Shown here piece after piece: positions 5,737 to 13,268 of a stretch of 24,375 bases of DNA; position 1 is the stretch's first letter; every line of letters starts with the position of its first letter. The position numbers were made by a program, and so were the translations under genes. The stretch is from NCBI GenBank assembly GCA_045600785.1, contig JAZRYO010000225.1, positions 1-24,375 on the forward strand. Reading direction: 5' to 3'. The stretch comes from Christensenellaceae bacterium. Lineage in GTDB: Bacteria > Bacillota > Clostridia > Christensenellales > Borkfalkiaceae. Under the pieces are notes generated by a model that ran no database searches, was not told where the DNA came from, and was given only the letters and a program-made list of their open reading frames with translations.

Positions 5737-7130
5737 CCTAATTTAACCCTCACTTTCAAGTTGGGTCCGCCGTCGGCAACCCTAACCCACTCTTTATATC
5801 CTTTTCCGCAACTACCCGAACCTATGACTTCGGACTTGTCCGATATCATAGTTATCGACTTCAAAAGTTCGGGTACCGAACCGCTCATAACGACGGGCGA
5901 TACGTAATTGTCTGTAAGTTTTCCGTCGATTATTTCTATGCCGTATTCGGCGGTGCATTGTATTTGCCAGTTCTTCGGGTCTTCCATACCGTTGTTGGTA
6001 TCGAATAACATATAGCCGTGTTTAATCGACTTTATCATATCCGAAAGTTTGTCTTTTCCTGCGTCGAAGAAAGTGTTGGTCATACGGGAATAAGCCTTGT
6101 TTTTGAAACTCTCTCTCCTGCCGTTGCCCGACGGTTTGACTTTAAGTTCGGTCGCACTCGTCAAGTCGGAAAGTCCGTTTACCAAAATTCCGTCTTTAAT
6201 GATTTGAGTGTTTTGCGCCAAAACGCCGTCGTCGTCAAAGAAGTACGACGCAGCCGACAAAGTCGCCCCCGCACCGTCTCTCATATTAGATATAGGCGAC
6301 GCAACGTATTTGCCGACGTATGATTTCGCAAGCGCCCTATCCTTTACGAATTGGTCCATTTCAACGCCGTGTCCGAACGCTTCGTGGGCGATTAAGCCCG
6401 TTATCGAACTGTCGGTTATAACGTCGTAAACCCCGGGAACTATGGGTTTTGCCTTGTCGAGTTTATGCGCAAGGTCGATAACTTTATCTGCCTTTTTAGT
6501 TAAGTCGGACATTACTTTTTTAAGCATGTTTCCGTTTGCGCTTTCAACTGCCTGAACTACTCTCTCGCCCTTATATATGACTACCAAAAAGGCGTTTGCC
6601 CAACCGTAATGTTGGTCCAAAACTTTATTGTTCGATACGAAAAGTTTTGATACGGTATAAGGACGGACGGATACGAAAGCGTTTAGTATCTTGTCGTCTT
6701 TTTTAAGCGTTTCGTTCATAAGGGAAGAACAGTACGACAATACTTTTTCGTCCGAAAACTTATCGAAATCGCTTTCTCTTAAAAAGGACTCGACGTGCTT
6801 TTCGTCCTTGATTTTTTGGCACTTTATCGTGTCGCCTTTAAGTTTTTTGGTGAGTTCGACCGAAGATAAAATCTTCTTCGCAAGTTCTTTTTTGTCCCCC
6901 GAAATATCCGATACCGAATATTCGTAGAAGGCGTCTTTTTTGTGCATTTTAACGACAAATCCACAGTCGTTTTGACCTTCTCTAATCATCGACGCCGCAC
7001 GGTTTGCTGTGTAGAACGTTTCTCTGACGTCAGTCCCTAAAACGCTGACGTAAGAAAAATGTTTCTTCAATTCTTTAACGAGTAAAACGGCGTCTTGTTT
7101 TCTACTTTGTAAAAATTCTGAAAACGGCAT
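5733..7130 (-). CDS. tldD: TldD-family metalloprotease (465 aa from ATG 7130)
   Basis: HEAFGHG zinc motif, FFDDDG, GNGRRES...SRMTNTF, GSCGKG; SD AAGGAG before ATG 7130. Confidence 0.9.
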   Translation of the reverse strand: MPFSEFLQSRKQDAVLLVKELKKHFSYVSVLGTDVRETFYTANRAASMIREGQNDCGFVVKMHKKDAFYEYSVSDISGDKKELAKKILSSVELTKKLKGDTIKCQKIKDEKHVESFLRESDFDKFSDEKVLSYCSSLMNETLKKDDKILNAFVSVRPYTVSKLFVSNNKVLDQHYGWANAFLVVIYKGERVVQAVESANGNMLKKVMSDLTKKADKVIDLAHKLDKAKPIVPGVYDVITDSSITGLIAHEAFGHGVEMDQFVKDRALAKSYVGKYVASPISNMRDGAGATLSAASYFFDDDGVLAQNTQIIKDGILVNGLSDLTSATELKVKPSGNGRRESFKNKAYSRMTNTFFDAGKDKLSDMIKSIKHGYMLFDTNNGMEDPKNWQIQCTAEYGIEIIDGKLTDNYVSPVVMSGSVPELLKSITMISDKSEVIGSGSCGKGYKEWVRVADGGPNLKVRVKLG

Positions 7131-7157
7131 TTTTTTCTCCTTTTCTTTTTTTAGACA

Positions 7158-7186
7158 ATTATATATCCTTTTCCCGTCTTTTTCAA
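7158..7186 (-). promoter_or_regulatory. sigmaA-type promoter of tldD
   Basis: TTGAAA (7186-7181), 17 nt, TATAAT (7163-7158). Confidence 0.75.
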
Positions 7187-7245
7187 CTGATTTTATATTC
7201 TTTTTTCTTTTACCGACTATTTGCCCCACTTATACTCCCCAAAAA

Positions 7246-7369
7246 TCACTCGCCGTAGGCGTACTTCACTGCACCGCAACTTCACTTGCGTTAGCAAACT
7301 TCACTGCGTAGCAACTTCACTTGTCGTAAGACAAACTTCACTTGCGCCAGCAAACTTCACTGCTCCGCA
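7246..7369. repeat. Array of ACTTCAC linkers alternating with variable mini-hairpins
   Basis: Exact ACTTCAC at 7263, 7279, 7298, 7314, 7335 and 7354, plus partial TCAC at 7246. Each is followed by a 9-14 nt self-complementary unit. Confidence 0.92.
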
Positions 7370-7378
7370 ATTCTCAAC

Positions 7379-7416
7379 AAAAAAAAAAGAGATGCGATAA
7401 AACGCATCTCGTTTTT
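7379..7416 (-). terminator. Rho-independent terminator of rplM-rpsI (possibly bidirectional)
   Basis: GAGATGCG/CGCATCTC stem (7389-7410), T10 tail on minus, T-rich tail on plus. Confidence 0.88.
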
Positions 7417-7418
7417 TG

Positions 7419-7832
7419 TTATCTCTTTGAGAATTGCGGAGCACGTCTTGCTTTCTTTATGCCGTACTTCTTTCTTTCCTTCATTCTCGGGTCTCTCGTT
7501 AAGAAACCTGCTTTTTTAAGCGTCGGACGGAGTTCGGGTTCTGCGACGATAAGCGCTCTCGAAATTCCGTGTCTTATTGCACCTGCTTGACCGGTAAATC
7601 CACCGCCGATTACGTTTACGAATACGTCGTACTTTCCGTCGGTTTCGGTCAAAACAAGGGGTTGACGAATAATGAGTTTTAACGTGTCAAGGTCGCAATA
7701 CTCGTCAATGCTTCTTCCGTTTATGTTGATAGCGCCCGTTCCGCCAGGGATAAGTCTAACCCTTGCGATTGCGCTCTTTCTTCTTCCTGTTCCCCAGTAT
7801 TGAAGTTTCTTTTTAACAGATACTTTTGCCAT
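7419..7832 (-). CDS. rpsI: 30S ribosomal protein S9
   Basis: [12 protein letters not shown]...[19 protein letters not shown]...[12 protein letters not shown]...[10 protein letters not shown]. Confidence 0.99.
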
Positions 7833-7849: not shown

Positions 7850-8284
7850 TTATTTACCGATTTTAAGTTCTACGGGTTTTTGTGCTTGATGATTGTGTTC
7901 TGCGCCTTTGTAAACACGAAGTTTAGAAAGCATTTGTGCGCCCAAAGTGTTCTTGGGAAGCATGCCCTTTACCGCTTCGTAAACAACGACGTCCGACTTT
8001 TCGTCCATCATTCTTCTGTATGGCGTTTGCTTTAATCCGCCGACGTATCCCGTGTGATAAGTGTAAAGTTTTTGGTCGAGTTTTTTACCCGTTAAAACTA
8101 CCTTGTCGCTATTTATTACTATTACGAAATCGCCCGTATCGACGTTGGGAGTGAATATCGGCTTGTTCTTTCCACGAAGAACGGTTGCAACTTGCGATGC
8201 AAGTCTTCCGAGAGTAAGTCCCGTAGCGTCGACAACGTACCATTTTCTTTCAACTTGTTGGTCCTTTGCCATATAAGTTTTCAT
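7850..8284 (-). CDS. rplM: 50S ribosomal protein L13
   Basis: [40 protein letters not shown]...HTGYVGGLK...GMLPKN. Confidence 0.99.
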
Positions 8285-8375
8285 TTTTATTCTCCAAATT
8301 TGTATGTTTTATATATATAAGGTCGTATCGGATAGGGGCTAAACTATGCGAAACTTCCCTTATAGATGCTAAACT

Positions 8376-8404
8376 ATTTTAGTAAAATAACTTTTCTTTG
8401 TCAA
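8376..8404 (-). promoter_or_regulatory. sigmaA-type promoter of rplM-rpsI
   Basis: TTGACA (8404-8399), 17 nt, TAAAAT (8381-8376). Confidence 0.8.
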
Positions 8405-8421
8405 GCGTTTTTATCTATTTT

Positions 8422-8625
8422 TTAATAATCTTTTCTTCCAAGCAAATAATCTGTCGATACTTCGAAAAAATCGGCAAGCAAAATAATGTACGACGCTTTC
8501 GGTTCGTTTACTCCCCTTTCCCAATAGTCGATAGCCTTTTGACTTGTCCCTATTGCTTTGCCCAATTCCAACTGCGACATTTTTCTCTCTTTTCGCAGTT
8601 CCTTTATAATCTCTCCTATTTTCAT
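8422..8625 (-). CDS. Small XRE/Cro-C1 family helix-turn-helix regulator, 67 aa
   Basis: IKELRKERKMSQLELGKAIGTSQKAIDYWERGVNEP...LADFFEVSTDYLLG is a typical HTH_3 pattern. Confidence 0.92.
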   Translation of the reverse strand: MKIGEIIKELRKERKMSQLELGKAIGTSQKAIDYWERGVNEPKASYIILLADFFEVSTDYLLGRKDY

Positions 8626-8637
8626 AATTAAAATTTT

Positions 8638-8688
8638 AGAAGAAAACTTCTTGTTTTTGTTGACAAAGAAGATTTCTTCTTGTATAAT
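8638..8688 (+). promoter_or_regulatory. Consensus promoter of the PH-domain gene with two palindromic operator candidates
   Basis: TTGACA 8660-8665, 17 nt, TG-TATAAT 8683-8688; AGAAG-N4-CTTCT at 8638-8651 and 8667-8680. Confidence 0.75.
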
Positions 8689-8733
8689 TATGTCTATAAT
8701 TCGTGTTTTTACACGTAAAATAAGGAGATTTTT

Positions 8734-9279
8734 ATGGAAAAGTATGCAGACAAAAACTTGTTGTCCGACGAGAAAATCGAACTTCGTGCGAAGTTTAGCG
8801 TTTTTTGTTTAGTTGGACCTATTCTATGGCTTATCGTAGCGTTAGTCATAGTCTTTACCATCGGTGGTGCGACCAAAGATATTGACGAACTTGATAGCAT
8901 GCTTAAAGTTTTCAAACTTGTGTTGATTGTTTTAGGCGTTCTTCCCCTTTTGAAGAAGATTATCATTTTAATGACGACCGACCTTGCGATAACCAATAAG
9001 CGTGTTATCGGAAAAACGGGCGTATTGAAAATCGAAACTCTTGACCTTCATATAGACAAGGTTGAAAGCGTAGAATTAAAAGCAAAGTTCTTTGAAAGAT
9101 TATTCGGATTAAACTCAATAGGCGTTAAGGGTTCGGGGGCATCTTCAATAACTTTATTCCACGGCATTGCTAACGCAACTCAATTTAAGAACGCCGTAAC
9201 GGAATCTATTGAAAAACACGCTGCCGAAGCACGTAGGGCGCAAGCCGAAGAAATCGCAAGAGCGATGGGCAAGAAATAA
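8734..9279 (+). CDS. Membrane protein with a bacterial PH-like (bPH_2/YdbS-like) domain, 181 aa
   Basis: Two hydrophobic segments, then DLAITNKRVIGKTGVL...LHIDKVESVEL...FERLFGLNSIGV; SD AAGGAG. Confidence 0.7.
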   Translation: MEKYADKNLLSDEKIELRAKFSVFCLVGPILWLIVALVIVFTIGGATKDIDELDSMLKVFKLVLIVLGVLPLLKKIIILMTTDLAITNKRVIGKTGVLKIETLDLHIDKVESVELKAKFFERLFGLNSIGVKGSGASSITLFHGIANATQFKNAVTESIEKHAAEARRAQAEEIARAMGKK

Positions 9280-9330
9280 TTTGTATTAAAAGGCTTAAGT
9301 TTTTTAACAAAATTTTATTGAAATACGAAA

Positions 9331-9375
9331 TTATGGGGGTATTTTTTCAAATTCCTTGAAAAAATACCCCCATAA
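9331..9375. repeat. Perfect 20-bp inverted repeat with 5-nt loop
   Basis: TTATGGGGGTATTTTTTCAA-attcc-TTGAAAAAATACCCCCATAA. Confidence 0.95.
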
Positions 9376-9379
9376 CGTT

Positions 9380-9447
9380 ATAAAACCCGTTTCGGGATTT
9401 TAGAAACGGGTTTTTAATATTCTACTTTTTTTAAGGTTAGACCTTCG
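9380..9447. repeat. Direct repeat copy 1 (68 bp): orphan duplicate of the truA 3' end and terminator
   Basis: Identical base for base to 10838-10905; encodes EGLTLKKVEY* on minus, followed by the AAAACCCGTTTC/GAAACGGGTTTT hairpin. Confidence 0.97.
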
Positions 9448-9565
9448 AGAATAAAATTTTGTCCGTCCTATTATTTGAAAACTTTGTCACAATTTGTCGT
9501 ATTTTTTCATCTGCTTGAAAATTTTTATAAAAAACGGTTAAATTTTTCATTTGGTTGAAAAAAAC

Positions 9566-9594
9566 TTGACATTTCTATTGTTATATATTATTAT
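9566..9594 (+). promoter_or_regulatory. sigmaA-type promoter of the ATPase gene
   Basis: TTGACA 9566-9571, 17 nt, TATTAT 9589-9594; SD AAGGAG 9601-9606. Confidence 0.7.
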
Positions 9595-9612
9595 AGACGT
9601 AAGGAGCGAAAT

Positions 9613-10806
9613 ATGATAATCAGAAACGAGTATTTGTCAGAATTACAATCTTTCAGAGAAAAAAAGTTAATAAAAGTTATTACCGGAATAAGACGTTGCG
9701 GAAAATCCACTTTGTTATTACAATATATCGACACGCTAAAACGTAGCGGAATAAAAGATAATCAAATTATTCATATAAATTTTGAAGCGCTGGAATATGA
9801 AGATTTACTTGATTATAGAAAATTATACGATTACATAAAACAAAGGTTAAGACCGAACGAATACACCTACGTTTTTTTAGACGAAGTTCAAAAAGTAAAA
9901 GATTTTCAAAAAGCCGTCGACAGTTTATATATTCAAAATTTTACAGACGTTTATATAACGGGTTCTAATTCCGATTTGTTATCAAGCGAAATTGCGACGC
10001 TGTTAACCGGAAGATTTGTTGAAATAAAATTACTTCCTTTATCGTTTAAGGAATATTTTTCGGTTCAAGATAAAAACATAGACAGGGATAAATTATTTTT
10101 TGAGTATCTAAAAACCGGTTCTTTACCTTACTTAACCGAATTGCCTGAAAAAAAAGCAAGAGAAATTTATATGGAAGGTTTATTCAACACGATAATGACC
10201 GTTGATATTGCAAAAAGACACCCGTCTGTAGATTTGTCGGTTTTAGATAGCATTTTCAAGTTTATCTTACATAATATAGGCAATTTGGTTTCGTCAACGG
10301 CTATATCTAACACTCTAATGTCAAACAACCGTAAAACGTCGTATAATTCAGTTGAAAAATACATTGCTTATCTTAAAGAGTGTTTTCTGATATACGAAGC
10401 AAAAAGATATGACGTTAAAGGTAAACAAAACCTAAAATCACTTGCTAAATATTACGTTGTAGATAACGGATTCAGAAATTTATTATTATCTAACAGCGAG
10501 TCCGATATAGGACACGTTTTGGAAAACGTTATTTATTTAGAACTTGTCCGTCGTGGTAATACGGTTTCCGTCGGAAAATTAGACGATAAAGAAGTCGATT
10601 TTGTCGTGGAAAACTCAAACGGTACGGAATATTATCAAATTTCGGCAACCGTTATGGACGAAACGAAATTTAAGTCGGAAATCGAACCGCTTAATAAAAT
10701 CAAAAATCATTATCCTAAATATTTAATTACGCTTGACAGATACGATTTCGGAAATTATCACGGTATAAAAATAATAAACGCCGTTGACTTTTTGTTGGAA
10801 GAATAA
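9613..10806 (+). CDS. AAA+ superfamily ATPase, AAA_14 plus DUF4143 (COG1373-type), 397 aa
   Basis: Walker A GIRRCGKS, Walker B VFLDEVQ, YITGSNS, KYYVVDNGF, LENVIYLEL, EVDFVV C-terminal motif. Confidence 0.88.
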   Translation: MIIRNEYLSELQSFREKKLIKVITGIRRCGKSTLLLQYIDTLKRSGIKDNQIIHINFEALEYEDLLDYRKLYDYIKQRLRPNEYTYVFLDEVQKVKDFQKAVDSLYIQNFTDVYITGSNSDLLSSEIATLLTGRFVEIKLLPLSFKEYFSVQDKNIDRDKLFFEYLKTGSLPYLTELPEKKAREIYMEGLFNTIMTVDIAKRHPSVDLSVLDSIFKFILHNIGNLVSSTAISNTLMSNNRKTSYNSVEKYIAYLKECFLIYEAKRYDVKGKQNLKSLAKYYVVDNGFRNLLLSNSESDIGHVLENVIYLELVRRGNTVSVGKLDDKEVDFVVENSNGTEYYQISATVMDETKFKSEIEPLNKIKNHYPKYLITLDRYDFGNYHGIKIINAVDFLLEE

Positions 10807-10833
10807 GCCGTTAAATCATCTGATAATTATATA

Positions 10834-10874
10834 AAAAATAAAACCCGTTTCGGGATTTTAGAAACGGGTTTTTA
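10834..10874. terminator. Bidirectional terminator between the convergent ATPase and truA genes
   Basis: 12-bp stem AAAACCCGTTTC/GAAACGGGTTTT (10840-10872) with T-runs on both strands. Confidence 0.8.
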
Positions 10875-10905
10875 ATATTCTACTTTTTTTAAGGTTAGAC
10901 CTTCG
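10838..10905. repeat. Direct repeat copy 2 (68 bp): functional truA 3' end and terminator
   Basis: Identical to 9380-9447. Confidence 0.97.
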
Positions 10906-11606
10906 GGGGCAAGGGTTATGCCTGCCGACTGTCTTTTTCCGCTTTTTATAACGTTTTTTACTTCTTTCGGCTTTATCTTTCCTTCGCCGACTTTTACGAG
11001 CGTCCCCGCCATTATCCTTACCATATTATATAAAAAGCCGTTGCCTTGAACCGTGAAGATAATATCTTCTCCCCTTTTTTCGACTTTGGCTTTATATATG
11101 ACTCTAACCGTGTCTTTGACTTTTGAATTACTCGCCAAAAAACACTTGAAATCGTGCTTGCCCAAAAAATACTTACACGCCTTTTTCATTTTTTTAACGT
11201 CAACGGGAAATTTTAGCCTATAAAATCTCTCGTCTTTTAAGGGGTGGGGAACGGGAGAATAATACATTTTATATTCGTAGGTTTTTTTCTTCGCCGAAAA
11301 CCTTGCGTGAAAGCCGTCATATTTCAGAAAACTTTCTACAACCGATACGTCGCTATCTAAATAGGGGTTTATGGCAAAGGCGAATTTTTCGGGCGGGATA
11401 TTAGAATTAGTATCAAAATGTGCGATTTGACCTTCGGCGTGAACTCCGCTATCCGTTCTTCCGCTACCGACCAAATTGACCTTTTCGCCCGTCGCCTTTT
11501 CTATTGCCTTTTCGATTTCTTCTTGCACCGTTCTTTTATCGGGTTGTGTTTGAAAACCGCAAAAGTTTTTTCCGTTATACTCTATTTTAAGGACTATTCT
11601 TCTCAT
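10872..11606 (-). CDS. truA: tRNA pseudouridine(38-40) synthase
   Basis: IEYNGKNFCGFQTQ...GSGRTDSGVHAEGQ (catalytic Asp)...FHARFSA...GNGFLYNMVRIMAG. Confidence 0.98.
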   Translation of the reverse strand: MRRIVLKIEYNGKNFCGFQTQPDKRTVQEEIEKAIEKATGEKVNLVGSGRTDSGVHAEGQIAHFDTNSNIPPEKFAFAINPYLDSDVSVVESFLKYDGFHARFSAKKKTYEYKMYYSPVPHPLKDERFYRLKFPVDVKKMKKACKYFLGKHDFKCFLASNSKVKDTVRVIYKAKVEKRGEDIIFTVQGNGFLYNMVRIMAGTLVKVGEGKIKPKEVKNVIKSGKRQSAGITLAPEGLTLKKVEY

Positions 11607-11610
11607 AACT

Positions 11611-12414
11611 TTATACCACCGTTTTACTTATAAATACGACGGCAAAAATAAACACCGCCGTCAAAGCGGTTGCGATTAAATCGCATAAAGAAAATTTGAG
11701 TTTTTTGTATTTCGTTCTCTTTCCGTTTCCCGAATAACACCTTGCGTCCATAGCGTCGCCGAGTTCGTCGGCACGACGAAATGCGGATACTAAAAGGGGT
11801 ATAAGTACGGGGATAAGCGCCTTAATACGCTTTATTACGTTTCCGCTTTCGAAATCTCCGCCCCTTGCTTTTTGGGCGCAAATAATTCTGTCCGTTTCGT
11901 CGGTAAGAGTCGGAATAAACCGTAATGCAATCGACATAATAAGCGCAAGTTCGTGGACGGGGAATTTGATTTTATTAAGCGGTTTTAATAAACTTTCAAG
12001 TCCGTCGCAAATGCCGACCGCCGTCGTCGTCAAGGTTAAAACCGAACTTCCCATAACGAGTGCGATAAGTCGTACCGACAAAAAAAGCGCACTTATTAAA
12101 CCTTCTTTATATATAACCCAAAAGAGTTTCGTGTCGCCGTCTTTTGCCGAGTAAAAACAAACGTTGATAATCGCCGTAAAGACGACCAAAACGATTATCC
12201 CTTTCATAGATTTTAAGACTGTTAATGGGGGAACTTTGGATAATATTATCGCAACGAGTAAAAAGGCAACGCAAAAGGAAAGCGCAATAAAATTTTGCGC
12301 CAAAAAGACTGCGACGATATATGCAATTAAAAGCAGTATTTTGGTTCTCGGGTCTAATTTGTGGATAGCCGACGAAACGGGATAATACTGTCCGAACGAT
12401 ACGTCCCTTAACAT
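11611..12414 (-). CDS. ecfT: ECF transporter transmembrane component T
   Basis: GQYYP...IHKLDPRTK...SIALRFIPTL...AQKARG...AMDARCY. Confidence 0.95.
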   Translation of the reverse strand: MLRDVSFGQYYPVSSAIHKLDPRTKILLLIAYIVAVFLAQNFIALSFCVAFLLVAIILSKVPPLTVLKSMKGIIVLVVFTAIINVCFYSAKDGDTKLFWVIYKEGLISALFLSVRLIALVMGSSVLTLTTTAVGICDGLESLLKPLNKIKFPVHELALIMSIALRFIPTLTDETDRIICAQKARGGDFESGNVIKRIKALIPVLIPLLVSAFRRADELGDAMDARCYSGNGKRTKYKKLKFSLCDLIATALTAVFIFAVVFISKTVV

Positions 12415-13268
12415 TTTTTCTTTATAATCTCTTTAATAAAATTTTCGGTCGAATAATCTAAATCTAAATTTACTCCGACTTTTTTAAGTTCGTCTTGTAA
12501 ATACTTGGTTATAGGTTCTTCAAGTCCTATTTCCTTTATTTCTTTGGTATCGAAAAACACTTCTTTGGGCGTTCCGAATTTAACAATTTTTCCGTGCGAA
12601 AATACTGCGACTTTATTACAGTTGTCGCACACTTCGTCCATATCGTGAGATATGATAACTACGGTTTTTGCGAACTCGCCGTGAAGTTTATGAAGTAAGT
12701 TCATAAGTTCTTTTTTGCCCTTGGGGTCAAGTCCCGCCACCGGCTCGTCTAAAACTAAAATCTCGGGTTTCGATACGATTACGCCCGCTATTGCCACCCT
12801 TCTTTTTTGTCCGCCCGAAAGGTCAAACGGCGAACGGCTTAAAACGGATAAGTCAAGCCCGACTTTTTCTACTGCGTCGATTACCGCCGACTTTACTTCT
12901 TCTTCGCTACTTTCTTTATAAAAATTTCGGTATCCGAAAGCGACGTCGTCGAAAACCGTTTCGGCGAAAAGTTGGTGTTCGGGGTATTGAAATACCATAC
13001 CCACTTTTTTGCGTAAGTTTATTAAATTCTTTCTCTCTTTTTTCTTTACTTTCGAAAGGTCGAATTCCCCTATTTGTAAGTTTCCTTCTTGGACGGGGAT
13101 AAGCGAGTTTAAGTGTTGGACGAAAGTCGATTTACCGCTACCCGTATGCCCTATTATTCCGAAAAAGTCCCCTTCTTCTATCTCGACGGAAACGCCGTCC
13201 AACGCCTTGACGGAGAATTTGCTTTTCTTATTATAAGTAAAGGTTAAGTTTTTTGCAGTAATTTGCAT
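12408..13268 (-). CDS. ecfA2: ECF transporter ATPase A2
   Basis: GHTGSGKST, VFQYPEHQLF, LSGGQKRRVAIAG, LDEPVAGLDP. Confidence 0.93.
   Translation of the reverse strand: MQITAKNLTFTYNKKSKFSVKALDGVSVEIEEGDFFGIIGHTGSGKSTFVQHLNSLIPVQEGNLQIGEFDLSKVKKKERKNLINLRKKVGMVFQYPEHQLFAETVFDDVAFGYRNFYKESSEEEVKSAVIDAVEKVGLDLSVLSRSPFDLSGGQKRRVAIAGVIVSKPEILVLDEPVAGLDPKGKKELMNLLHKLHGEFAKTVVIISHDMDEVCDNCNKVAVFSHGKIVKFGTPKEVFFDTKEIKEIGLEEPITKYLQDELKKVGVNLDLDYSTENFIKEIIKKKC

What the first reader, a model, noticed from the sequence alone, without database searches (positions are those of the whole stretch)
9380..10905. Integrase-less single-gene cassette bracketed by an exact 68-bp duplication of the truA 3' end
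Seen: 9380-9447 equals 10838-10905. The repeat covers the last 34 nt of truA (EGLTLKKVEY*) plus its terminator, and encloses only a promoter and an AT-rich ATPase gene. Known: integrative elements that target gene 3' ends restore the gene and leave such a duplication (attL/attR). Inference: a 1,458-bp circle integrated recently (repeats are still identical), either via a recombinase supplied in trans or via homologous recombination. Excision would cleanly restore truA, giving a reversible on/off or copy-number-variable cargo unit. truA would be a protein-coding target rather than the usual tRNA target.
Basis: partly seen in the sequence, partly recalled or inferred. Interest (0 to 1): 0.8.

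Follow-up and report, generated by a model that had tools for sequence, protein, structure and literature searches.

The report
One-gene ATPase cassette, 68-bp target duplication
A foreign 1.4-kb piece of DNA carrying one candidate anti-phage ATPase-nuclease gene was inserted right at the end of the housekeeping gene truA, copying 68 bases of truA's end and terminator to both sides; this footprint recurs around this gene family and was so far described in print only for restriction-modification genes.

Summary
9380-9447 and 10838-10905 are identical, and they are the only two copies in the genome. The repeat is truA's last 34 nt plus a bidirectional terminator hairpin.

Between the copies lie 1,390 low-GC bases (30% against 39%). 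They hold two operator-like palindromes, a strong promoter and one intact 397-aa gene (Pfam AAA_14 + DUF4143; PADLOC candidate PDC-S01). The model shows an ORC/STAND-like ATPase with a restriction-endonuclease-fold tail.

The duplicated TruA tail is conserved in 29 relatives, so the repeat is target-derived. Most relatives have truA next to rplM.

Close homologues at unrelated sites, and this genome's second paralogue, are also bracketed by locus-specific 49-166-nt direct repeats: 4 of 25 loci against 0 of 250 control ORFs.

I found no integrase, transposase, tRNA, inverted ends or shared core. The best fit is "insertion with long target duplication", known for restriction-modification genes, here with a different nuclease-type cargo.

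Circle, excision and switching remain untested. No close relative or adequate read set was available. One independent sample confirms the cassette-repeat-truA junction.

This scan has noted the same footprint around this gene family on other DNA many times (56 notes).

The parts
9380..9447 (.). Left copy of the 68-nt direct repeat. It holds the bidirectional terminator hairpin (9382-9414) and an orphan copy of the last 34 nt of truA (9414-9447).
9448..10837 (+). Unique 1,390-bp insert (the cassette): low GC (30.3%), no inverted ends, no recombinase gene.
9504..9521 (.). Operator-like palindrome 1, TTTTCA-N6-TGAAAA.
   Evidence: 5 such sites in the 1.12-Mb genome, 3 of them at this locus; TTTCA-N6-TGAAA lies 57-146 nt upstream of the start in 10 homologue loci
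9544..9561 (.). Operator-like palindrome 2. It abuts the -35 hexamer and lies 40 nt from palindrome 1. It is conserved together with the -35 in the P0010 homologue locus (L130).
9566..9594 (+). Cassette-borne promoter TTGACA-17-TATTAT (11 of 12). The AAGGAG ribosome-binding site is at 9601-9606.
9613..10806 (+). 397-aa ATPase-nuclease-fold gene: Pfam AAA_14 + DUF4143, PADLOC PDC-S01. Walker A and B are intact. The C-terminal domain (about 296-397) has a PD-(D/E)XK fold.
10838..10905 (.). Right copy of the 68-nt repeat. It acts as the shared terminator of the ATPase gene (+) and truA (-), and it holds the functional 3' end of truA (10872-10905).
10872..11606 (-). truA (tRNA pseudouridine synthase), intact. 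It is the target gene whose 3' end is duplicated.
9331..9375 (.). Perfect 20-bp-stem hairpin just left of the left repeat. It is the likely terminator of the bPH_2 gene and lies outside the duplication.
8422..9279 (.). Neighbouring inserted module: an HTH_3 (XRE) gene (8422-8625, minus) divergent from a bPH_2 gene (8734-9279, plus). Together with the cassette it fills the truA-rplM gap, which is 170-380 bp in most relatives.

Best explanation
A 1,390-bp foreign cassette was inserted at the junction of truA's 3' end and its terminator, and the insertion duplicated 68 bp of the target. The cassette consists of two operator-like palindromes, a promoter, a ribosome-binding site and one gene. That gene is of the PDC-S01 type: an ORC/STAND-like AAA+ ATPase with a PD-(D/E)XK-fold domain.

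This is an instance of 'insertion with long target duplication'. That class was described for restriction-modification genes, including solitary Type IV nuclease genes.

Shown:
- The repeat is target sequence.
- The insert is compositionally foreign and carries its own conserved control region.
- No recombinase, transposase, tRNA or inverted ends are present.
- The same footprint, with locus-specific repeats of 49-166 nt, recurs around close homologues and around the genome's second paralogue.

Inferred:
- Incoming DNA was joined into the chromosome by host break-repair or recombination functions, not by a dedicated integrase.
- The two joints lay 68 bp apart, either as staggered breaks or as breaks in two sister copies around the terminator hairpin. 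Filling in or joining then left the 68 bp on both sides.
- The nuclease-type cargo may itself provoke the break.

Consequences, also inferred:
- truA stays intact.
- The cassette has no terminator of its own and uses the duplicated one.
- RecA recombination between the 68-bp copies can delete the cassette precisely or amplify it.
- Once formed, the structure can spread within the species by ordinary homologous recombination.
For: - Exact, unique repeat.
- The duplicated TruA tail P.GLTL..VEY is conserved in 29 relatives.
- truA is followed by rplM in 22 of 29 relatives, mostly 170-380 bp apart.
- Cassette GC is 30.3% against 39.0% for the genome, below the first percentile of 1.2-kb windows.
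- The promoter and palindromes move with the gene. TTTCA-N6-TGAAA is found upstream of 10 homologue loci, always with N6.
- Flanking direct repeats at other loci:
  - P0011 lineage: 161 nt at 89%.
  - P0004: 49 nt at 92%.
  - L064: 126-166 nt at 83-85%.
  - Own paralogue on contig C221: 43 and 37 nt at 95%.
- Under one uniform test, 4 of 25 ATPase loci have such repeats against 0 of 250 control ORFs (Fisher p 5e-5).
- The repeats share no sequence between loci.
- No tRNA is involved.
- The genome has only Xer-like recombinases.
- RecA, DprA and ComEC are present.
- Published class, from PMC2853133:
  - target duplications over 30 bp, often overlapping a neighbour gene's 3' end;
  - no mobility genes in the insert;
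  - all restriction-modification types, including a solitary mcrA gene;
  - double-strand breakage proposed as the common cause;
  - amplification through the repeats shown.
- The REase fold of the C-terminal domain is supported by Bax1, Can2/Cdn1, Hjc and McrC matches.
- ATPase pieces in samples X1 and X2 are 98.9% identical, while truA and ecfT pieces are 93.3% identical (p 6e-8). This hints that the cassette is younger than those lineages.
Against: - No empty-site allele could be found for this species. The nearest TruA is 65% identical, and exact look-ups failed.
- The mechanism of long target duplication is unknown even for restriction-modification genes.
- Most homologue loci (about 80%) show no strong repeats. 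More distant family members in the genus show none or almost none. The footprint is therefore either short-lived or not obligatory.
- In the C221 paralogue the upstream repeat copy contains the promoter. Not all brackets are therefore simple target duplications.
- The comparison of X1 and X2 identities rests on few short contigs that may come from more than one organism.
- The canonical (D/E)xK lysine is not evident in the sequence (QxS at 342-344), so nuclease activity is unproven.
Confidence: 0.5

Rival explanations
1. Integration of a 1,458-bp circle (cassette plus one repeat copy) by a site-specific recombinase supplied in trans. The repeats would then be attL and attR, and the unit an integrase-less, cis-mobilisable element.
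For: The geometry is that of attL and attR at a gene's 3' end, with the gene restored. Two tyrosine recombinase genes exist elsewhere in the genome. The assembly is only 86% complete, so an integrase could have been missed.
Against: - Both recombinases look like housekeeping Xer enzymes. One lies beside a D-Ala-D-Ala carboxypeptidase gene and the other beside parA.
- No serine recombinase was found.
- No integrase-bearing element lies at truA in the relatives searched.
- The second paralogue and the homologue loci have unrelated repeats of very different lengths, 49-166 nt, with no shared core.
- No tRNA is involved.
Confidence: 0.15
2. Campbell-type single crossover by RecA between the chromosomal 68 bp and a circularised DNA fragment that already carried the same 68 bp. 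Such a fragment could come from a sibling strain taken up by transformation.
For: - The product is exactly repeat-cassette-repeat.
- 68 bp of perfect homology is usable by RecA.
- RecA, DprA and ComEC are encoded.
- A related strain (X2) carries the cassette at the same truA junction.
Against: - It explains spread, not origin, because the first circle must already contain target sequence.
- It does not explain why unrelated sites in unrelated hosts show the same footprint around this gene family.
Confidence: 0.15
3. Self-mobilisation. The encoded ATPase and REase-fold protein itself makes widely staggered cuts at terminator hairpins and drives insertion of its own gene. This would be a recombinase-free, single-gene mobile element.
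For: - The footprint is enriched around this family.
- The cargo has a nuclease fold and an ORC-like DNA-binding ATPase.
- The repeats usually contain hairpins.
- Copy number in the genus ranges from 0 to 12.
- Nearly identical COG1373 genes are shared between gut genera (PMC10782964).
Against: - No conserved cassette termini or inverted repeats were found.
- Most copies lack repeats.
- There is no biochemical evidence of nuclease activity.
- The same footprint occurs with restriction-modification genes of unrelated folds. That points to a host repair pathway and not to a dedicated enzyme.
Confidence: 0.1
4. The assembly misrepresents the structure. The sample would hold an empty site plus a free circular or tandem cassette, and the assembler threaded them into one contig through the 68-nt repeat.
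For: The source is a fragmented metagenome bin of 267 contigs. The repeat is exact. The left junction has no independent confirmation.
Against: - Junction words cannot be invented, so the repeat abuts both cassette ends in real DNA.
- An independent sample has a contig running from the cassette through the repeat into the truA body.
- Imperfect repeats (83-95%) around homologues cannot be assembly artefacts.
- 68 nt is shorter than ordinary reads.
Confidence: 0.05

Closest known systems
Insertion with long target duplication of restriction-modification gene complexes (Nobusato et al. 2000, Gene 259:99; Furuta, Abe and Kobayashi 2010, PMC2853133)
   Same: - A small insert without mobility genes.
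- A locus-specific direct repeat longer than 30 bp made of target sequence, often overlapping the 3' end of the neighbouring gene.
- An insert with deviant GC content.
- A nuclease-type cargo, including a solitary Type IV nuclease gene.
- Repeats that allow amplification or loss.
   Different: - The cargo is not a restriction-modification system. It is a single AAA_14/DUF4143 ATPase with an REase-fold domain and its own operator and promoter.
- No empty-site genome was available here to complete the published criteria.
- The host is an uncultured gut Clostridia-type bacterium.
PADLOC phage-defence candidate PDC-S01 (Pfam AAA_14 + DUF4143; COG1373)
   Same: Full-length match at E 2e-150. It shares the two Pfam domains and the single-gene, patchy, horizontally moving distribution.
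   Different: The family is defined by sequence only, and defence has not been shown experimentally (PMC12988326). Its mode of insertion is not described in the papers I could search.
Integrative elements that target gene or tRNA 3' ends, and their integrase-less derivatives (cis-mobilisable elements)
   Same: Direct repeats that restore the target gene's 3' end, and cargo lying between attL-like and attR-like copies.
   Different: - No integrase in cis and no candidate in trans.
- No conserved core between copies of the family.
- Repeat length varies widely between loci.
Integron gene cassettes with attC sites
   Same: A single-gene unit bounded by hairpin-containing repeats.
   Different: - The repeat contains truA coding sequence.
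- The cassette has its own promoter.
- There is no integron integrase; the best tyrosine recombinase scores 64 bits against a cut-off of 265 for the integron integrase model.
- There is no cassette array.

Membership tests
Insertion with long target duplication (criteria of Furuta et al. 2010) | Direct repeat longer than 30 bp flanking the insert | tested here: met
   68 nt, 100% identical
Insertion with long target duplication (criteria of Furuta et al. 2010) | Insert under 20 kb with no integrase, transposase or other mobility gene, and repeats not multi-copy in the genome | tested here: met
   The 1,390-bp insert holds one ORF. The repeat occurs only twice in the genome. No tRNA is present.
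Insertion with long target duplication (criteria of Furuta et al. 2010) | The repeat aligns with a single copy at an empty site in a related genome | not testable with these tools
   The nearest TruA is 65% identical. Indirect support only: the duplicated TruA tail is conserved in 29 relatives, and truA-rplM adjacency is ancestral.
Insertion with long target duplication (criteria of Furuta et al. 2010) | Cargo is a restriction-modification system | tested here: not met
   The cargo is AAA_14 + DUF4143 with no methyltransferase. Its REase-fold domain resembles McrC, Hjc, Bax1 and Can2. It therefore works like the class but is not an R-M case.
Site-specific integrative element (attL/attR) | A cognate integrase in cis or in the genome | tested here: not met
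   None in the window. The genome has two Xer-like tyrosine recombinases and no serine recombinase, at 86% completeness.
Site-specific integrative element (attL/attR) | A common core shared by elements of the same family, or other elements at the same site | tested here: not met
   The repeats of the C221 paralogue and of the homologue loci are unrelated. No element lies at truA in the relatives searched.
PADLOC PDC-S01 / Pfam AAA_14 + DUF4143 | Full-length profile match and both domains | tested here: met
   PDLC04787 E 2.3e-150; PF13173 E 1e-35; PF13635 E 1e-17
PADLOC PDC-S01 / Pfam AAA_14 + DUF4143 | Intact ATPase motifs and a PD-(D/E)XK fold | tested here: met
   G25-K31-S32 and D90-E91 are invariant. 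The C-terminal model has pLDDT 87 and matches Bax1, Can2, Hjc and McrC. The canonical lysine is not evident, so the active site remains inconclusive.
PADLOC PDC-S01 / Pfam AAA_14 + DUF4143 | Protection against phage | not testable with these tools
   Reported as not yet validated (PMC12988326)
Integron gene cassette | An attC site recombined by an integron integrase; a promoterless cassette in an array | tested here: not met
   It has its own promoter. The repeat holds truA coding sequence. No integron integrase is present.
Transposon or insertion sequence | Transposase, terminal inverted repeats, short target duplication | tested here: not met
   There is no transposase ORF and no inverted repeat at the cassette ends. 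The duplication is 68 bp.

The most novel reading that the evidence does not exclude
PDC-S01-type genes would be autonomous one-gene selfish elements. Their ORC/STAND-like ATPase with a restriction-endonuclease-fold domain would recognise terminator hairpins next to highly expressed housekeeping genes and make widely spaced staggered breaks. It would thereby drive, or force the host to carry out, insertion of its own gene with a long target duplication. Their reputation as the fourth commonest 'defence' gene could then partly reflect this mobility.
Probability: 0.1. Interest if true: 0.9.

Novelty: new member of a known kind. Interest (0 to 1): 0.55.

Why it matters
PDC-S01 genes are reported as among the commonest candidate defence genes in bacteria and archaea (PMC12988326). 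How they move is not described in the literature I could search.

This window offers a very clean case:
- an exact 68-bp duplication that includes coding sequence of a conserved housekeeping gene;
- a cassette with its own conserved operator and promoter;
- a second bracketed paralogue in the same small genome.

Together with the recurrence at other loci, this suggests that 'insertion with long target duplication' is a general route by which nuclease-type single genes enter core operons without any integrase. That route has been documented for restriction-modification genes but remains mechanistically unsolved.

The case gives a testable system for that mechanism, and for clean loss or amplification of defence genes through the flanking repeats.

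Tried and rejected
- **Empty site in this species.** Exact-protein look-ups for the ATPase, TruA and RplM found nothing. The best TruA homologue in 5.8 billion proteins is 65% identical. The 39 same-genus genomes are too distant for DNA comparison.
- **Reads.** Only two runs hold fragments, with 0.09-0.11 of the sampled words, as Logan contigs. These gave one contig across the right junction. Nothing crossed the left junction, the empty site or a circle junction.
- **Empty site for other bracketed loci.**
  - All 16 contigs with the exact neighbour protein of the P0011 locus carry the ATPase, and one copy is frameshifted.
  - Relatives of the L064 genome have the right-hand neighbour gene without the ATPase, but their intergenic DNA does not align.
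- **tRNA att site.** No tRNA was found in the window or in the bracketed loci.
- **Known RNA in the repeat.** None was found.
- **Integron, IS and Xer/dif readings.** See the membership tests. The repeat is not multi-copy, and the window lies near dnaN and rpmH, not near a terminus.
- **Conserved cassette termini.** None was found between loci, apart from the promoter-operator block shared with L130.
- **Plasmid and phage vehicles.** The family occurs on 253 plasmid records and 18 phage records, all below 50% identity. Two plasmid copies checked have no flanking repeats.
- **The 9331-9375 hairpin.** Its core resembles the palindromes, but the spacing is N7, not N6, and it looks like an ordinary terminator.
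Full report
**Observation.** The sequence at 9380-9447 is identical to 10838-10905: 68 nt, spacing 1458. A search of the whole 1.12-Mb, 267-contig assembly finds only these two copies.

The genes around the repeat are:

| Gene | Coordinates | Strand |
|---|---|---|
| rpsI | 7419-7832 | minus |
| rplM | 7850-8284 | minus |
| HTH_3 regulator | 8422-8625 | minus |
| bPH_2 protein | 8734-9279 | plus |
| AAA_14 + DUF4143 ATPase | 9613-10806 | plus |
| truA | 10872-11606 | minus |
| ecfT | 11611-12414 | minus |
| ecfA | 12408-13268 | minus |

The right repeat copy contains truA's stop codon and its last ten codons (EGLTLKKVEY). It also contains a 12-bp-stem hairpin flanked by A and T runs that folds equally well on both strands, that is, a bidirectional terminator. 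The left copy is an orphan.

I applied the same flanking-repeat test to 202 ORFs of 300-600 aa in this genome. Only this ORF passes.

**Is the repeat target sequence?** Yes. All 29 TruA orthologues fetched from the same genus end in the same motif, P.GLTL..VEY. The 34 duplicated coding bases are therefore truA's native end.

In 22 of 29 relatives truA is followed directly by rplM, in 21 of them after only 170-380 bp. In the window the gap is 2.6 kb. It holds two inserted modules: the divergent HTH/bPH_2 pair and the ATPase cassette.

Where relatives lack rplM downstream of truA, the neighbours are ordinary metabolic genes, not integrases or elements.

**The insert.** The 1,390 unique bases (9448-10837) have 30.3% GC against 39.0% for the genome. 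That is below the first percentile of 1.2-kb windows.

They carry:
- a TTGACA-17-TATTAT promoter at 9566-9594;
- an AAGGAG ribosome-binding site;
- the 397-aa ORF;
- two copies of the palindrome TTTTCA-N6-TGAAAA, at 9504 and 9544, 40 nt apart, the second abutting the -35 hexamer.

Only five such palindromes exist in the whole genome, and three lie at this locus.

The core TTTCA-N6-TGAAA, always with a 6-nt spacer, lies 57-146 nt upstream of the start codon in ten homologue loci from other organisms. Several have two copies 39-40 nt apart. The block of palindrome plus -35 is 93% identical to that of a homologue whose protein is only 65% identical. The control region therefore travels with the gene, and autoregulation is a reasonable inference.

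The cassette has no terminator of its own. The ORF ends 31 nt before the duplicated hairpin.

**The protein.** It matches PADLOC's phage-defence candidate PDC-S01 over its full length (E 2e-150). That family is reported as very common in bacteria and archaea, built from an ATPase and a PD-(D/E)XK-superfamily domain, and not yet validated experimentally (PMC12988326; PMC3424549).

- The full-length model is confident (pLDDT 90, pTM 0.90).
- It resembles the archaeal Walker ATPase PABY2304, Orc1/Cdc6 and STAND NTPases.
- The C-terminal 106 residues, modelled alone (pLDDT 87), match only nuclease-fold proteins: Bax1, Cdn1/Can2, SfsA, Hjc, McrC and EcoRV.
- Walker A and B, E304, K322, E327, D329 and Q342 are invariant or nearly so.
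- A canonical (D/E)xK lysine is not evident, so activity is not established.

**Recurrence.** Homologues in the collections sit as solitary genes in unrelated contexts. Examples are a site between EPSP synthase and a chloride channel, one beside a methyltransferase on a conjugative-type element, one between rpoB and rplL, and one beside glmU-like genes.

Several are bracketed by direct repeats that differ from locus to locus:

| Locus | Repeat length | Identity |
|---|---|---|
| P0011/P0014 lineage (one old event, seen in two species) | 161 nt | 89% |
| P0004 (inside the 3' end of the methyltransferase gene) | 49 nt | 92% |
| L064 | 126-166 nt | 83-85% |
| This genome's second paralogue (contig C221) | 43 + 37 nt | 95% |

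The C221 paralogue lies about 870 nt upstream of the S10 ribosomal operon.

Under one uniform test, 4 of 25 ATPase loci have such repeats against 0 of 250 control ORFs (Fisher p 5e-5). Leaving out the window, which was chosen for its repeat, the count is 3 of 24 against 0 of 250. More distant family members in the genus show none or almost none. The repeats share no sequence with each other, and no tRNA is involved.

**Recombinases.** The window has none. The assembly (86% complete) has two tyrosine recombinases that score best against Xer models. One sits beside a D-Ala-D-Ala carboxypeptidase gene and the other beside parA. There is no serine recombinase. RecA, DprA and ComEC are present.

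**Independent samples.** Two public runs hold low-depth fragments of a related organism. One 450-nt contig from a faeces metagenome spans 10503-10949 at 96% identity. The cassette-repeat-truA junction therefore exists outside this assembly. Nothing spans the left junction, an empty site or a circle junction.

Pieces inside the ATPase gene are 98.9% identical to the window (5 of 473 positions differ). Pieces of truA and ecfT are 93.3% identical (124 of 1852 differ; p 6e-8). This hints that the cassette is younger than the divergence of those lineages. The pieces are short, however, and may come from more than one organism.

**Comparison with what is known.** Furuta, Abe and Kobayashi (PMC2853133), following Nobusato et al. 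2000, describe 'insertion with long target duplication':
- the inserts are restriction-modification genes of all types, including a solitary mcrA;
- they carry no mobility genes;
- their locus-specific direct repeats are over 30 bp, for example 46 bp overlapping the last 15 bp of a neighbour gene;
- insert GC often deviates from the genome;
- the cases occur mostly in competent species;
- double-strand breakage is proposed as the shared cause;
- amplification through the repeats has been demonstrated.

The window meets every criterion I could test. Two things differ: the cargo is not a restriction-modification system, and no empty-site genome is available.

Integron, transposon, tRNA-integrase and Xer-type readings each fail a defining feature (see the membership tests). 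I found no paper that describes this footprint for DUF4143, COG1373 or PDC-S01 genes. One paper lists COG1373 among genes shared nearly identically between gut genera (PMC10782964).

**Earlier notes of this scan.** Look-ups returned 56 notes, from at least 56 genomes, that hold all the search words for DUF4143 ATPase genes bracketed by direct repeats. Among them are truA-like cases at rpoC and rmuC. Several follow-ups reached the same comparison with long target duplication. Others read the brackets as the gene's own operator repeats.

I treated these notes as leads. The literature comparison, the target origin of the repeat, the recurrence statistics and the operator were all checked here on this window and on loci I fetched myself.

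[quoted passage not shown] The nuclease-type cargo may trigger it.

A trans-acting integrase is not supported. A circle, excision and switching are plausible consequences of 68 bp of perfect homology, but they remain untested.

It is a new member of a known but mechanistically unsolved kind. Its value lies mainly in the family-wide pattern.

Noticed in passing
window 9504-9561; L130 2921-2948; upstream regions of L043, L044, L051, L060, L061, L063, L118, L126, L131: The palindrome TTTCA-N6-TGAAA is conserved in front of this ATPase subfamily. It occurs once or twice (39-40 nt apart) next to the -35 hexamer. It is probably a cassette-borne operator.
   Followed up: partly
own genome contig C221 (L144) 6170-6252, 6267-7463, 7476-7586: The second DUF4143 paralogue (40% identical) lies about 870 nt upstream of rpsJ. 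It is bracketed by a duplicated pair of hairpins, one an AT-rich palindrome and one a GC-rich terminator. The upstream copy has a 31-nt insert holding a perfect TTGACA-17-TATAAT promoter. The contig ends inside the repeat.
   Followed up: partly
window 8285-9379: The divergent HTH_3 (XRE) and bPH_2 gene pair is also an insertion into the truA-rplM gap, which is 170-380 bp in most relatives. It has no flanking direct repeat. With the cassette it forms a small accessory islet inside a ribosomal-protein neighbourhood.
   Followed up: partly
window 7238-7378, minus strand: Two adjacent sub-threshold matches to Rfam Gut-1 RNA (RF01706; 35 and 26 bits against a gathering score of 50) lie just downstream of rpsI.
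   Followed up: no
L131/L132 3001-4194: A 63%-identical homologue sits with a RelB antitoxin gene and an HTH_31 gene between rpoB and rplL. This is another insertion into a core transcription and translation cluster.
   Followed up: no
L078 4124-5283: In one human-associated sample the P0011-type ATPase gene is split into two ORFs (frameshift). It lies at a locus where all 16 retrieved contigs carry the gene.
   Followed up: no
plasmid collection: 175 of the 253 plasmid records with a family member are Acinetobacter plasmids. One copy checked lies between a rep gene and an IS30 transposase gene and has no flanking repeats.
   Followed up: partly
same-genus genomes G010, G017, G049: In three relatives a DUF4143 gene lies 9-10 kb from truA on the same contig. 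This suggests repeated insertion of family members into this ribosomal and ECF neighbourhood.
   Followed up: no
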